Shown: positions 15,883-25,898 of the stretch, piece after piece | How the letters are laid out: each line of letters opens with the position of its first letter | Numbering within the stretch: the stretch's first letter is position 1 | Source of the DNA: a bacterium | GTDB lineage: Bacteria; Patescibacteriota; Minisyncoccia; Phycocordibacterales; Phycocordibacteraceae | Direction: 5' to 3' | DNA length: 30,474 nucleotides | Assembly: GCA_021812955.1 (NCBI GenBank) | Contig: JAKAMJ010000001.1 | Location: 1-30,474 of the forward strand | Notes under the pieces: model-generated | Told to the model about the DNA's origin: nothing | Database searches by the model: none | What the model saw: the letters and a program-made list of their open reading frames with translations, nothing else | Program-made: the position numbers and the translations under genes

Positions 15883-16422
15883 CTAGTCGCGGAAGCGGCG
15901 GACGCCCACGTAGATGAGCGCGATAAGCGCGATGGCGGAGATGCCGAGGCGCAGCCATTCTCCCGCGTCGCCCCAATACTGCATCGCCCCGACGATGAGC
16001 GCGAGCACGCCGCCGTAAGAGAGGCCGGAGGAAACGATCGACGAACCGATCGGCACGACGCCAACGACGAGCGCGATGATGCCGAGCACGGTCATGAGGA
16101 TGAACGCGTAGAGATGCTGCTCTGAGAGCGCTTGCTCGTATTTGGGCTGGCATGTCGCTGCATAGTCGCAGTAGCCGGCGAGCGCCTTCGCAGGCGTCGT
16201 AGCGACCGGCTGCGGCGGGTACTCCGTCCAGACGCCGCCCTGCGCGTCGCACGCGGCGGCATCTTGCGCCTGGACGGCAGGCGTCGGGCAGTATGCCTGG
16301 TAATCCGGCGAAGGGAACGCGATCTGTTCGATCACGAAAAAGAAGACGTTTAAGATGACAACGATACCGATAAGGAGCGCCCAGCGGACGAACTTCGGGT
16401 GCTTTGGTGCGGTTGTTTCCAT
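15883..16422 (-). CDS. Hypothetical membrane protein, 179 aa, with about 4 TM helices and a Cys-containing external loop
   Basis: Hydrophobic segments, four Cys in the loop; promoter upstream. Confidence 0.8.
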   Translation of the reverse strand: METTAPKHPKFVRWALLIGIVVILNVFFFVIEQIAFPSPDYQAYCPTPAVQAQDAAACDAQGGVWTEYPPQPVATTPAKALAGYCDYAATCQPKYEQALSEQHLYAFILMTVLGIIALVVGVVPIGSSIVSSGLSYGGVLALIVGAMQYWGDAGEWLRLGISAIALIALIYVGVRRFRD

Positions 16423-16518: not shown

Positions 16519-16523
16519 ATTAC

Positions 16524-16869
16524 TTAAGAACGGCAAGAGAAGAGCGCAAAGCGCATGAAGTAGGGTTCGAGGTCAGCGAGGCGGCTGCCGTAGGCCTCGC
16601 CGCCCAAGATTGCATCTGCGACAGTCTCGCGCGCCCGGTCGAGCTCGAAGCGACGCGCGCGCCAGCGCGCATCTTCACGCGTGAGGTCGAGGAGCTCGAG
16701 CGCGCGGCCGGCAGCACCCCAGAAGAGCTTTTCGTCCTTGCCCTGCCATTTGTGCGCACGCCCGACTTCGCTCCCGACATTGCCGAGCTGGTCGGCAAGC
16801 GAGAGAGTGAACCAACGTTCTCTGGAAATAGTCGAGACGCGAGTTTTCTTTGACTATCTTCGTCTCCAT
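16524..16869 (-). pseudogene. Frameshifted, or non-canonically started, conserved-looking small helical protein
   Basis: ATG 16869 gives METKIVKENSRLDYFQR. The adjacent frame, open 16853-16524 with no ATG/GTG/TTG near its 5' end, gives ERWFTLSLADQLGNVGSEVGRAHKWQGKDEKLFWGAAGRALELLDLTREDARW...PYFMRFALFSCRS*. Confidence 0.7.
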
Positions 16870-16894
16870 TGTGGGCGCATTGTATCACGCGAGG

Positions 16895-19183: not shown

Positions 19184-19202
19184 AATTTGACAAAGTCAAA
19201 TT
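19184..19202. other. Perfect palindrome AATTTGAC-AAA-GTCAAATT (operator or weak terminator)
   Basis: 8-bp arms; abuts the stop of the 166-aa gene; contains TTGACA/TTGACT. Confidence 0.45.
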
Positions 19203-19701
19203 ATTTCGGACGGGCGAGGAAGTGGGCGTATTGGAGGACGCCGTAGAAGACGCCGGTCGCGACGACGAAGAACGCGATCGTCGCGCCGAACGCGAGCGGC
19301 GGCATCCACCCGAGTGTGAGATACGCGAGGAACCACCACGCAGTGAACGCGATAGCCGAGCCGAGCACGAACGTGATGCGCTTGCGCGACAGCTCAAGCG
19401 ATATGAAAAGGATGATGAGGGCGAACGCCACGAGCGCCCAGTAGTTCTCCGTTACCGCCGGTTGCGTGGCTGCCCCGGACAGATACGCCGCGACGACGAG
19501 CGCGAGCGACGAGACGAGCAGCAGAGACATGCCCCAGCGCAGCCCGTGCGCGATGATGTCGAGGTGCCTCCGTTCGGCGCGGTCTATATGCCCGTCGCGC
19601 ATAGCATGGACATAAGCTATCTGGCCCCAGACGGCCGTAACGACGCCGATTATCGCTCCGAGCGCTTGGCAGAACAGGGTGAATACGACGAACGTGCTCA
19701 T
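19201..19701 (-). CDS. Hypothetical integral membrane protein, 166 aa, about 5 TM helices
   Basis: Multiple hydrophobic helices; coupled to the upstream gene. Confidence 0.8.
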   Translation of the reverse strand: MSTFVVFTLFCQALGAIIGVVTAVWGQIAYVHAMRDGHIDRAERRHLDIIAHGLRWGMSLLLVSSLALVVAAYLSGAATQPAVTENYWALVAFALIILFISLELSRKRITFVLGSAIAFTAWWFLAYLTLGWMPPLAFGATIAFFVVATGVFYGVLQYAHFLARPK

Positions 19702-23087: not shown

Positions 23088-24539
<1,452 letters not shown>

Positions 24540-24591
24540 TTAGACAAACGGCTTCGGCCCTCCCCGCAAGGGGTATAAATGAAAGAGCGGT

Positions 24592-24978
24592 TCATGGCAG
24601 CAATGCTTTGAGCCGTTTTTTCATTTCTGCCATATCCTCGGCCTGTACCGTGCCCGTTTGATAAAAAAGCCGTTTCGCGTCAACAAGACGGACTTGGGAC
24701 AATATCGCCGTACTTTGTTCTCCGTTCAATTCAAACGAAAAATAGAACGGCGCGTTTTTCAACGTCCTCGTGAGAGGAATCGCCCAGAAGATTTCATTGT
24801 TGAATTTCCTGATAATTACGACCGGCCGAAGATGCTCAGAGCCACTTCCATCCTGTTCGAAACCGATATTCACACCGAGCGCCGCGAACCACACCTCACC
24901 TTCGCGGAAGAACGGACGTTCCTTCTCGGCATGTATGCCGGATTTTTCGCGATGCCAGATTTGGAAATCCTTCTTCAT
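24592..24978 (-). CDS. PemK/MazF-like toxin family protein, 128 aa, with no adjacent antitoxin gene
   Basis: Start MKKDFQIW, 5 nt after the atpG stop; GEVWFAALGVNIGFEQDG, LRPVVII, IPLT, ILSQVRLVDAKRL. Confidence 0.88.
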   Translation of the reverse strand: MKKDFQIWHREKSGIHAEKERPFFREGEVWFAALGVNIGFEQDGSGSEHLRPVVIIRKFNNEIFWAIPLTRTLKNAPFYFSFELNGEQSTAILSQVRLVDAKRLFYQTGTVQAEDMAEMKKRLKALLP

Positions 24979-24983
24979 GCGCG

Positions 24984-25898
24984 TTATGTGGCGAGCGCCT
25001 CCCGCCCGCTGATAATCTCTGACACTTCCCGCGTGATGGCCGCCTGGCGGATCTTGTTGAAAAGCCGCGTGAGGCCCTGCGCGACCTCCTTCGACTTGTC
25101 GCTCGCGTTCTTCATCGCGACCATGCGCGCCGAGTGCTCCGAGGCTTTCGCTTCGAGCAGCATGTGGTAGAGCGCGACGCTCGTGAGGCGCGGGATGAGC
25201 GCGCCGAGCACGTCGCCCGACTTCGGCTCCACTTCGTATGAAATCGGCGGCTCGAGCGACGGCTCGTGGCTCCACTTGCCCTTCGCCGGGATGATGCCCT
25301 CGACGATGTCCTTCAACGCGGGAATGGAGAGCGGCAGCAGGCGGCGCATCGTCGGCGCCTGCTCGAAAGTCGACTTGAAGTGACTGTAAAAAGTCACCAC
25401 TTTGTCGTAGTCGCCGCGAAGGAAGCCCTCCGAGAGCTCGCGCGTGAGCTCCTCCATAGTGGCAAGCGGCACGTCGTCTGCCTTGTTCTCGATCGCGCGC
25501 GCGATCTGGTAGCCGCGGCGAGCGAAGTATTCTTCGCCCTTCTTGCCGTAGGCGTAGACGACCACCTGCCCGGTCGAGAGCGCGCGCTTCTCCAAGTATT
25601 CTGCGGCTGCTTTTATCACGCCGCTGTTGAGTGCGCCGGCGAGGCCCTTGTCGCTCGTTATTACGACGAGTGCGACGCGCGAGACCGGCCGCTGCTCGGC
25701 GAGCGGATGCCGCTTCACTTCCTCTGTGCCGGCGATGCGAGTGAGGATCGAGAGCGCCGCGCGGGCGTACGGCCGCCCCGCGAGCGCCGCCTCCTGCGTC
25801 TTGCGCATCTTAACTGCACTCACCGCCTCCATAGCACGCGTCACCTTGTGCGTGCGGTTCGTCGCTCCTATTTTAGTTTTAATATCTTTTAACGCCAT
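24984..25898 (-). CDS. atpG: ATP synthase gamma subunit
   Basis: KVTRAMEAVSAVKMRK, SDKGLAGALN, SEHSARMVAMKNA, RQAAITREVSEI. Confidence 0.98.
   Translation of the reverse strand: MALKDIKTKIGATNRTHKVTRAMEAVSAVKMRKTQEAALAGRPYARAALSILTRIAGTEEVKRHPLAEQRPVSRVALVVITSDKGLAGALNSGVIKAAAEYLEKRALSTGQVVVYAYGKKGEEYFARRGYQIARAIENKADDVPLATMEELTRELSEGFLRGDYDKVVTFYSHFKSTFEQAPTMRRLLPLSIPALKDIVEGIIPAKGKWSHEPSLEPPISYEVEPKSGDVLGALIPRLTSVALYHMLLEAKASEHSARMVAMKNASDKSKEVAQGLTRLFNKIRQAAITREVSEIISGREALAT

What the first reader, a model, noticed from the sequence alone, without database searches (positions are those of the whole stretch)
24592..24983. Solo MazF/PemK-like gene inserted between atpG and atpD
Seen: a 128-aa AT-richer gene starts 5 nt after the atpG stop, with no promoter or antitoxin ORF of its own. 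It retains the Arg (LRPVV) and Thr (IPLT) positions used by MazF-family RNases. Established: atpG-atpD are normally adjacent, and MazF enzymes are mRNA interferases. Inference: either a selfish cassette sheltering in an essential operon, or a domesticated RNase coupling energy metabolism to dormancy or processing the atp mRNA. With DUF4258 and NYN it is the third RNase-like accessory gene slotted between housekeeping genes in this window.
Basis: partly seen in the sequence, partly recalled or inferred. Interest (0 to 1): 0.65.

Follow-up and report, generated by a model that had tools for sequence, protein, structure and literature searches.

The report
MazF toxin with antisense-RNA partner
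The "antitoxin-less" MazF-type RNA-cutting toxin gene wedged into the ATP synthase operon of this tiny uncultured bacterium has a partner after all, a conserved small RNA gene that faces its 3' end and is probably its antidote. The pair is a roaming accessory cassette in a gap where relatives carry many other small passenger genes.

Summary
A 128-aa PemK/MazF gene (24592-24978, minus strand) starts 5 nt after the atpG stop. It is AT-richer than its neighbours, is intact, and keeps the catalytic Arg and Thr/Ser positions.

It is not solo. A candidate 78-nt RNA gene (24544-24621, plus strand) converges on it. It has a promoter, a UUCG hairpin, a GNRA hairpin, an A-rich linker and a terminator stem lying over the PemK stop codon.

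All three PemK paralogs of this 548-kb genome have such an RNA. In 121 genomes of the same family, all 20 matches to the RNA's 5' motif lie beside a PemK gene (16) or a PemK remnant (4).

Homologs on Campylobacterota plasmids, including C. jejuni pVir, have the same layout. pVir is reported to carry the antisense-RNA antitoxin CjrA.

The atpG|atpD gap is a variable slot: 22 of 99 relatives carry unrelated small genes there. PemK reached it at least three separate times, and close homologs sit at other loci.

My reading is a selfish toxin/RNA-antitoxin cassette, not an atp-specific RNase. No expression data exist, and this copy's RNA promoter is the weakest seen. This scan has already reported the same toxin-RNA pairing on other Patescibacteria DNA.

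The parts
24984..25898 (-). atpG (ATP synthase gamma subunit, 304 aa). Its stop lies 5 nt before the PemK start.
   Evidence: Pfam ATP-synt, E 8e-83; ORF list.
24592..24978 (-). PemK/MazF-family endoribonuclease gene, 128 aa, of the N-terminally extended subfamily (subtype A).
   Evidence: Pfam PF02452, E 3e-11. AlphaFold2 model with pLDDT 91.6, showing an N-terminal helix (residues 5-17) and a MazF barrel. Foldseek top hits are S. aureus MazF and B. subtilis YdcE, TM 0.7-0.8. R51 is invariant and T70 is Thr or Ser. pN is 0.13-0.22 against a saturated pS.
24509..24537 (+). Candidate promoter of the antisense RNA: TTGCTA, 17-nt spacer, TAGCTT. The -10 element ends 6 nt before the conserved ACAAAC start.
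   Evidence: It has the same position and spacing as the 9-11/12 promoters in 19 of 26 related loci. The scan tool flags those promoters in relatives but not here. This copy scores 7/12, the weakest.
24544..24621 (+). Candidate 78-nt convergent antisense small RNA. Parts: ACAAAC start; hairpin 1 GGC-UUCG-GCC (24550-59); hairpin 2 CCCC-GCAA-GGGG (24562-73); A-rich linker (24574-86); terminator stem 24587-94 / 24609-16 over the PemK stop codon; U-run 24616-21.
   Evidence: About 100% nucleotide identity across loci whose proteins are only 55-74% identical. Hairpin 2 has 13 different stems, all paired, and GNRA loops in 24 of 26 loci. The terminator stem covaries. The 5' motif is PemK-linked in 20 of 20 matches. 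No Rfam match. Transcription is not shown.
24459..24508 (-). Non-conserved spacer between the cassette and the atpD start. It differs from the 13-19-nt junction found at empty sites.
   Evidence: Alignments A1 and comparison with empty sites.
23088..24458 (-). atpD (ATP synthase beta subunit, 456 aa), downstream of the cassette and its two-way terminator.
   Evidence: Pfam ATP-synt_ab, E 3e-75.

Best explanation
The insert is a two-gene accessory module. One gene is a promoter-less MazF-type RNase toxin, transcribed and translated as a rider on the host gene upstream (here atpG). The other is a convergent small RNA with its own sigma-70-type promoter, ending in a terminator hairpin that lies over the toxin's stop codon.

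I propose that the RNA is the antitoxin, or at least the controller, of the toxin. It could act by pairing with the 3' end of the toxin transcript, as in type I systems with 3' overlap. It could also, or instead, be bound by the toxin protein, as in type III systems.

The module is selfish and mobile among Patescibacteria. It lodges in permissive intergenic gaps of housekeeping operons, and atpG|atpD is one such gap.

Shown here: the gene, its fold and its conserved catalytic positions; the RNA gene's conservation, covariation and strict linkage to PemK; and the variable occupancy of the slot.

Inferred: that the RNA is transcribed, that the toxin is toxic, the RNA's antitoxin role, and the mechanism.
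For: 1) All three PemK paralogs of this genome carry the RNA, and the GGCTTCGGCC hairpin-pair layout occurs only at those three sites.

2) 26 of 41 family loci match a strict motif, and most of the rest show variants by eye.

3) The loops are UNCG/GNRA tetraloops only when read antisense to PemK. One variant gives a U-G pair on the antisense strand but a C-A mismatch on the sense strand.

4) Hairpin 2 has 13 distinct stems, all fully paired. The terminator stem has 5 pairs with double compensatory changes.

5) Promoters score 9-11 of 12 in 19 of 26 loci, at a fixed distance from the RNA start.

6) The 16-nt 5' motif gives 20 matches in 121 genomes, against 1 for the reversed-pattern control. 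Sixteen lie 40-120 nt beyond an intact PemK gene, and 4 lie beside truncated or deleted PemK genes.

7) At least 7 loci keep the RNA while the toxin has decayed. This is the asymmetry expected of an antitoxin.

8) No conserved protein antitoxin is present. The upstream neighbours are atpG, lepA, rnhB, an S41 peptidase and others.

9) Synonymous sites are saturated while the RNA's 5' part stays identical.

10) N-extended homologs on Nitratiruptor, H. suis and C. jejuni pVir plasmids have the same convergent promoter-plus-hairpins layout. pVir is reported to carry the antisense-RNA antitoxin CjrA (PMC10470494, PMC7826846).

11) 22 of 99 relatives have more than 200 nt between atpG and atpD, filled with unrelated small genes. 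The tree needs at least 3 arrivals of PemK at this slot.
Against: There is no transcript evidence. The metatranscriptomes from the same study hold nothing from this organism.

The window's own RNA promoter scores only 7/12, the weakest of 26, and the scan tool does not flag it.

The RNA's 5' hairpins show no complementarity to the toxin's translation start (mean z 0.15), so a par/Fst-like two-site pairing is not supported.

The extreme conservation of hairpins that lie outside the likely overlap is not explained by plain antisense action.

The same promoter-plus-hairpins element serves as the 5' leader of an NYN gene in one genome, and faces a nucleotidyltransferase-like gene in another.

Toxicity has not been tested.
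Confidence: 0.65

Rival explanations
1. Domesticated RNase with an atp-specific job: it processes the atp mRNA, or couples ATP synthase expression to dormancy. Its position between atpG and atpD would then be functional.
For: The atpG-PemK-atpD order is kept in at least 4 lineages at about 70% protein identity. The gene is under purifying selection. The cassette places a two-way terminator in front of atpD.
Against: Homologs at 74% and 67% identity sit beside rnhB and lepA. The closest relatives by atpD (90-91% identity) have an empty site or a different PemK subtype. The slot holds many unrelated genes. The family is patchy (32 of 121 genomes) and multi-copy, with up to 7 copies.
Confidence: 0.07
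2. The RNA and PemK form a partnership other than toxin-antitoxin. For example, the RNA could be a guide, substrate or scaffold for a non-toxic RNase, or the pair could be an anti-phage sensor.
For: The hairpin sequence is very strongly conserved across PemK subtypes that share only 35-45% identity. One locus has an array of 4-5 hairpin pairs behind a single promoter. An N-terminal helix with invariant W8 and K12 is found only in this RNA-linked subfamily.
Against: PADLOC gives no hit. RNA-only remnants with a decayed PemK fit an antidote better than a cofactor. The catalytic residues of toxic MazFs are kept.
Confidence: 0.15
3. A truly solo toxin, neutralised by an unlinked protein antitoxin.
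For: Two AbrB/MazE-type ORFs exist elsewhere in the genome. One lies at a contig end, so its partner is unknown.
Against: One of the two is paired with a RelE/ParE-like gene. The genome has only three PemK genes, and each has its own RNA gene. No conserved small ORF accompanies the family.
Confidence: 0.05
4. This copy is a silenced or decaying relic. The weak RNA promoter is tolerated because the toxin is barely made or is inactive.
For: The promoter scores 7/12, the lowest of 26 loci. There is no Shine-Dalgarno sequence or promoter in front of PemK.
Against: The ORF is intact with all invariant residues. The RNA body is 100% consensus. The -35 TTG and the -10 TA...T positions are kept at the correct spacing.
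Confidence: 0.08

Closest known systems
cjrA/cjpT type I toxin-antitoxin system of Campylobacter jejuni 81-176 plasmid pVir (Shen et al. 2016, Mol Microbiol 101:909; cited in PMC10470494 and PMC7826846)
   Same: pVir encodes an N-extended PemK-family protein at 30634-31038. It is 32% identical to the window protein (E 8e-17), and the match includes the N-terminal helix. No protein antitoxin is annotated beside it. A convergent extended -10 promoter plus a hairpin run into its 3' end. CjrA is reported to be an antisense RNA antitoxin.
   Different: I could not read Shen 2016, so I have not verified that CjpT is this PemK-like ORF. The RNA sequences are unrelated to the UUCG/GNRA hairpin pair found in Patescibacteria. 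The pVir system is a plasmid stability locus, whereas this one is a chromosomal rider in housekeeping operons.
Type I systems with convergent, 3'-overlapping RNA antitoxins: B. subtilis txpA/RatA and bsrG/SR4, and the par (Fst/RNA II) locus of pAD1 with its shared two-way terminator (from my own knowledge of these systems)
   Same: The RNA gene is convergent, has its own promoter, and overlaps the toxin's 3' end. The terminator hairpin is shared: the RNA's A-rich linker is the U-tract of the sense-strand terminator.
   Different: The toxin is a 128-aa RNase, not a small membrane peptide. There is no second pairing site at the toxin's 5' end. The conserved hairpins lie outside the minimal overlap.
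Type II MazEF / PemIK (Kis-Kid), for example B. subtilis EndoA/YdcE (PDB 1NE8, 4MDX) and S. aureus MazF (4MZP)
   Same: The fold matches (Foldseek TM 0.7-0.8), the protein is in Pfam family PF02452, and the catalytic Arg and Thr/Ser positions are kept.
   Different: There is no upstream MazE/PemI-type protein gene. The protein has an extra N-terminal helix with invariant Trp and Lys. An RNA gene sits where the partner would be expected.
Type III ToxIN (from my own knowledge of this system)
   Same: The toxin is an RNase of the Kid/MazF-like fold class, and it is paired with a structured RNA. One locus (G378) has a tandem array of hairpin units.
   Different: ToxI is a repeat array upstream on the same strand and is processed by the toxin. 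Here the RNA is a single convergent unit with its own promoter and terminator.

Membership tests
PemK/MazF toxin family (PF02452) | Profile match above the curated threshold | tested here: met
   43.9 bits against a cut-off of 23.1, E 3e-11, covering residues 26-127. The genome-wide scan gives the same three genes.
PemK/MazF toxin family (PF02452) | MazF/Kid SH3-like barrel fold | tested here: met
   AlphaFold2 model with pLDDT 91.6. The top 50 Foldseek hits are all MazF, YdcE or MoxT.
PemK/MazF toxin family (PF02452) | Catalytic Arg and Thr/Ser positions (B. subtilis MazF R25/T48) | tested here: met
   R51 aligns to the RPV Arg and T70 to the ITA Thr. In the family, R is 61 of 61 and T/S is 61 of 61.
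PemK/MazF toxin family (PF02452) | Sequence-specific endoribonuclease activity and growth arrest | not testable with these tools
   Needs expression and cleavage assays.
Type II MazEF/PemIK module | Adjacent, co-transcribed protein antitoxin gene (MazE/AbrB, RHH, Phd type) | tested here: not met
   The upstream gene is atpG, 5 nt away, and there is no conserved small ORF at 19 related loci. The two AbrB-type ORFs of the genome lie elsewhere, one of them paired with a RelE/ParE-like gene.
Type I toxin-antitoxin (3'-overlap class) | Cis-encoded antisense RNA gene with its own promoter that overlaps the toxin transcript | tested here: met
   Met at sequence level only: promoter, conserved RNA body, and a terminator over the stop codon. 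Transcription is not shown.
Type I toxin-antitoxin (3'-overlap class) | Toxin is a small hydrophobic peptide | tested here: not met
   The toxin is a 128-aa soluble MazF-fold protein.
Type I toxin-antitoxin (3'-overlap class) | The RNA lowers toxin mRNA stability or translation | not testable with these tools
   Needs genetics. No pairing to the translation start was found.
Type III toxin-antitoxin (ToxIN-like) | Tandem RNA repeats upstream of the toxin on the same strand, processed and bound by the toxin | tested here: not met
   The RNA is a single convergent unit downstream. Only one locus (L045) has an array. Binding was not tested.
cjrA/cjpT of pVir | Toxin homologous to the pVir PemK-like ORF, with a convergent RNA gene at its 3' end | tested here: met
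   BLASTP E 8e-17, including the N-terminal helix. An extended -10 promoter plus a hairpin lie antisense to the 3' end in pVir, Nitratiruptor and H. suis plasmids.
cjrA/cjpT of pVir | The pVir PemK-like ORF is the published CjpT, and the facing RNA is CjrA | tested here: inconclusive
   Shen 2016 is not held in the library, and no held paper names cjpT together with Campylobacter.
Rfam RNA families | Match to any curated covariance model | tested here: not met
   No credible match for the window region or for 15 related loci.

The most novel reading that the evidence does not exclude
The small RNA is a protein-binding (type III-like) antidote, recognised through the subfamily-specific N-terminal helix. 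That would make this a distinct, RNA-controlled branch of the MazF family, spread from Patescibacteria to Campylobacterota plasmids. In this locus, its two-way terminator and the antisense duplex would also make atpD-atpC expression depend on the state of the module. A selfish cassette would thereby gain leverage over ATP synthase stoichiometry.
Probability: 0.2. Interest if true: 0.8.

Novelty: new variant of a known kind. Interest (0 to 1): 0.6.

Why it matters
MazF toxins are the textbook protein-protein (type II) toxin-antitoxin case. A large, conserved branch with more than 1100 clusters at 50% identity replaces the protein antidote with a small structured RNA. That would change how 'orphan' MazF genes are annotated, and it would add an uncurated RNA family.

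Patescibacteria have tiny genomes of about 0.55 Mb, yet this one keeps three such modules plus an orphan RNA. They therefore matter for the biology of organisms with little room for non-essential DNA.

The atpG|atpD survey also shows that conserved operons of streamlined genomes contain defined gaps that collect small accessory genes. This is useful for interpreting 'interrupted operons' in metagenome-assembled genomes.

Tried and rejected
- Rfam scans of the window region and 15 related loci gave nothing credible.
- PADLOC and NCBIfam added nothing beyond a weak MazF match.
- RNA evidence: no RNA run holds the stretch. Three metatranscriptomes from the same mine-drainage study showed only conserved ATPase fragments from other organisms.
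- A par-like second pairing site between the RNA's 5' part and the toxin's start region: no signal.
- Folding the whole spacer as one RNA on the sense strand: no better than shuffled sequences (z +1.25). The signal is in the two short hairpins and in the antisense orientation.
- A small protein in the spacer: the 50-aa plus-strand ORF at 24509-24661 is the RNA gene read as protein. Its start and end are not conserved in relatives.
- A duplicated atpG end as an insertion scar: absent in the window, G002 and G096, present only in G094.
- dN/dS proper could not be computed because synonymous sites are saturated.
- The MAFFT alignment of hairpin 2 across subtypes was not structurally coherent, so I used per-sequence folding instead.
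- Shen et al. 2016 could not be retrieved, and searches for cjpT found nothing.
- I did not compare the atpG|atpD gap with other atp junctions, so 'hot spot' is relative to the 77 of 99 empty sites only.

Full report
**Observation**

The gene is real. On the minus strand, an ATG at 24976-78 opens a 128-aa frame that ends at 24592. It lies 5 nt after the atpG stop and 133 nt before the atpD start. It matches Pfam PemK_toxin above the curated threshold.

GC falls to 0.47-0.50 across the gene, against 0.63-0.70 in the flanks. GC3 is 0.56, against 0.83-0.87 in atpG, atpD and atpA. A 1010-nt contig from a DNA run of the same mine-drainage study covers 24050-25059 without any difference, so the junction is not an assembly artefact.

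The genome is a 548-kb, 70-contig Patescibacteria bin. Source names on close homologs say Paceibacterota.

**The protein**

The AlphaFold2 model is confident (pLDDT 91.6). It shows an N-terminal helix (residues 5-17), a MazF-type barrel and a C-terminal helix. All of the best Foldseek matches are MazF, YdcE or MoxT structures, with TM 0.7-0.8.

In a 61-member alignment, R51 is invariant and position 70 is always Thr or Ser. These align with R25 and T48 of B. subtilis MazF. W8, K12, G35, N37, E41, G44 and R103 are also invariant or nearly so.

Among subtype-A orthologs, non-synonymous differences are 0.13-0.22 per site while synonymous sites are saturated at 0.75-0.90. The protein is therefore maintained by selection.

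The family is large: 1103 clusters at 50% identity with E below 1e-10. The hits that carry a source name are labelled Patescibacteria.

**Not solo**

Aligning the DNA downstream of six close homologs showed about 55 nt after the stop codon that is far better conserved than the coding sequence. Two of those loci are not in an atp operon.

A 24-nt core of this element recurs unchanged in 14 of 401 genomes of the order, from 13 genera. In those genomes it mostly lies 12-20 nt after PemK genes that are only 55-74% identical in protein.

Read on the strand opposite to PemK, the element has the following parts:
- a sigma-70-type promoter;
- a conserved ACAAAY start exactly 6 nt after the -10 element;
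- a GGC-UUCG-GCC hairpin;
- a second hairpin closed by a GNRA loop;
- an A-rich linker;
- a hairpin plus U-run that lies over the PemK stop codon and its last codons.

The evidence for an RNA on the antisense strand is:
- The loops are canonical UNCG and GNRA tetraloops only in that orientation. One variant gives a U-G pair on the antisense strand but a C-A mismatch on the sense strand.
- Hairpin 2 has 13 different stem sequences of 4-11 bp in 26 loci, all fully paired, with GNRA loops in 24 of 26.
- Hairpin 1 flips between GGC/GCC and GCC/GGC.
- The terminator stem has five pairs with changes on both sides.
- Promoters score 9-11 of 12 in 19 of 26 loci, and the scan tool finds them in relatives.

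Rfam has no matching family.

In the window, the RNA would run from 24544 to about 24621 on the plus strand.

**Linkage to PemK**

This genome has three PemK genes. The GGCTTCGGCC hairpin occurs seven times in the genome, and the three occurrences with the full layout are exactly the three PemK loci.

In 121 genomes of the same family, the 16-nt 5' motif gives 20 matches, against one for the reversed-pattern control. Sixteen of these lie 40-120 nt beyond an intact PemK gene on the opposite strand (coordinates). The other four lie beside a truncated or deleted PemK gene. One of those four is an orphan RNA next to efp in this same genome.

Together with L040, L042 and L053, at least seven loci keep the RNA after the toxin has decayed. 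Intact toxins with no recognisable RNA are rare: two uncertain cases among 41 loci. This is the asymmetry expected if the RNA protects against the protein.

No conserved protein antitoxin accompanies the family. The upstream neighbours are atpG, lepA, rnhB (divergent), an S41 peptidase, comEC (divergent) and others.

Two AbrB/MazE-type ORFs exist elsewhere in the genome. One is paired with a RelE/ParE-like gene, and the other is cut by a contig end.

**Mechanism**

The A-rich linker of the RNA is, on the other strand, the U-tract after the same hairpin. The terminator therefore works in both directions, as in the par locus of pAD1 (from my own knowledge of that system). If both transcripts stop there, they overlap only in the terminator hairpin.

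I found no complementarity between the RNA's 5' part and the toxin's start region (mean z 0.15).

Three observations are not explained by simple antisense pairing and leave room for direct protein binding:
- the near-invariance of hairpin 1 across subtypes that share only 35-45% protein identity;
- an array of four to five hairpin pairs behind one promoter at one locus;
- the N-terminal helix specific to this subfamily.

I therefore commit to 'RNA antitoxin' at about 0.65. The mode of action, type I-like or type III-like, stays open.

**Precedent**

tblastn against plasmid and phage records finds full-length homologs, including the N-terminal helix, in several places:
- a Nitratiruptor plasmid (40% identity);
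- a 5.8-kb H. suis plasmid;
- C. jejuni pVir;
- CJIE4 prophages.

In the three plasmids I inspected, an extended -10 promoter and one to three hairpins face the 3' end of the gene and stop next to its stop codon.

pVir is reported to carry a type I system with the antisense RNA antitoxin CjrA (PMC10470494, PMC7826846, both citing Shen et al. 2016). I could not read that paper. The identity of CjpT with the pVir PemK-like ORF is therefore likely but unverified.

**The location**

I computed the atpG-to-atpD gap for the 99 genomes that have both genes on one contig. In 77 the gap is at most about 140 nt, and usually 13-60 nt. In 22 it exceeds 200 nt.

I fetched 20 of these larger gaps. They hold same-strand small genes of many kinds:
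- PemK plus a SET-domain gene (G002);
- other PemK subtypes (G094, G096);
- a NUDIX hydrolase (G080);
- a 23S-rRNA-IVS-type four-helix protein (G069);
- a Gly-rich 60-75-aa protein in four genomes of a sister genus;
- a 64-aa membrane peptide;
- several proteins of unknown type.

The relatives closest by atpD (90-91% identity) have an empty site or subtype B. G030 has an empty site and keeps its 67% ortholog after lepA. The 74% homolog P0003 lies beside rnhB.

In a maximum-likelihood tree of 44 family members, the six atp-located genes need at least three origins on well-supported branches. The window's gene groups with three other atp-located genes and with the rnhB-located one.

The position is therefore a permissive slot that is reused, not a sign of an atp-specific function.

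A cost is plausible, because the cassette puts a terminator in front of atpD. I found no sense-strand promoter for atpD by the consensus scan.

**Caveats for this copy**

The window's RNA promoter (TTGCTA, 17-nt spacer, TAGCTT) is at the right place but scores 7/12, tied for the lowest of 26 loci. The scan tool flags neither this promoter nor the long-looped terminator. No expression data exist for this organism.

**Earlier notes of this scan**

I consulted these notes after reaching the reading above. They report the same MazF-plus-convergent-RNA pairing at many other Patescibacteria loci, another atpG|atpD case, and the pVir link. They agree with this report but are not independent evidence.

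**Verdict**

The feature is a member of a widespread toxin/small-RNA module of Patescibacteria. I found it described in no searched paper and in no Rfam family. Its only probable published relative is cjrA/cjpT. Here the module sits in a variable gap of the atp operon.

Noticed in passing
G000 contig C25:2301-2390 (locus L082, about 802-890): A fourth copy of the small RNA in this genome, with promoter, both hairpins and terminator, lies next to efp with no PemK gene. Only the last few toxin codons survive inside the terminator. G020 has the same orphan RNA at the same efp locus.
   Followed up: partly
Loci L012-L031 (atpG|atpD junctions of 20 relatives): The gap between atpG and atpD carries unrelated same-strand passengers: SET domain (G002), NUDIX (G080), 23S rRNA IVS protein (G069), a Gly-rich 60-75-aa protein starting MASPERKG (G010, G025, G015, G023), a 64-aa membrane peptide (G103, G106), and unknown proteins of 96-158 aa.
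   Followed up: partly
L013 (G094 junction), about 527-552 from the atpG end: Downstream of the subtype-B PemK and its RNA there is a second, 26-nt copy (88% identical) of the atpG 3' end, followed by the original atpG-atpD spacer. This cassette entered inside the end of atpG and duplicated it, which is a possible clue to the insertion mechanism.
   Followed up: partly
L046 (G147:C35, around 27795): The same promoter, UUCG hairpin and GNRA hairpin are used here as the 5' leader of a same-strand NYN-domain gene, not as an antisense RNA to PemK.
   Followed up: no
L041 (G487:C142, around 2778): The subtype-A RNA, with its promoter, faces the 3' end of a 224-aa nucleotidyltransferase-like ORF instead of a PemK gene.
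   Followed up: no
L045 1413-1700 (G378:C4): One promoter is followed by four to five UUCG/GNRA hairpin pairs and a terminator, convergent on a 128-aa PemK gene. This is a tandem-array version of the RNA.
   Followed up: partly
G000 contig C26:4-505: An AbrB/MazE-type antitoxin ORF (83 aa) overlaps the start of a 105-aa RelE/ParE-like ORF, forming an ordinary type II pair. A second AbrB-type ORF on C29 is cut by the contig end.
   Followed up: partly
Neighbouring ORFs at 19201-19701, 15883-16422 and 16520-16888 have no Pfam match. The DUF4258 gene was not located.
   Followed up: partly
Empty atpG|atpD sites (L074-L078): In relatives without an insert, a TATACC/TATACT-like hexamer lies within the 13-19-nt spacer just before the atpD ATG. 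The window's junction lacks it.
   Followed up: no
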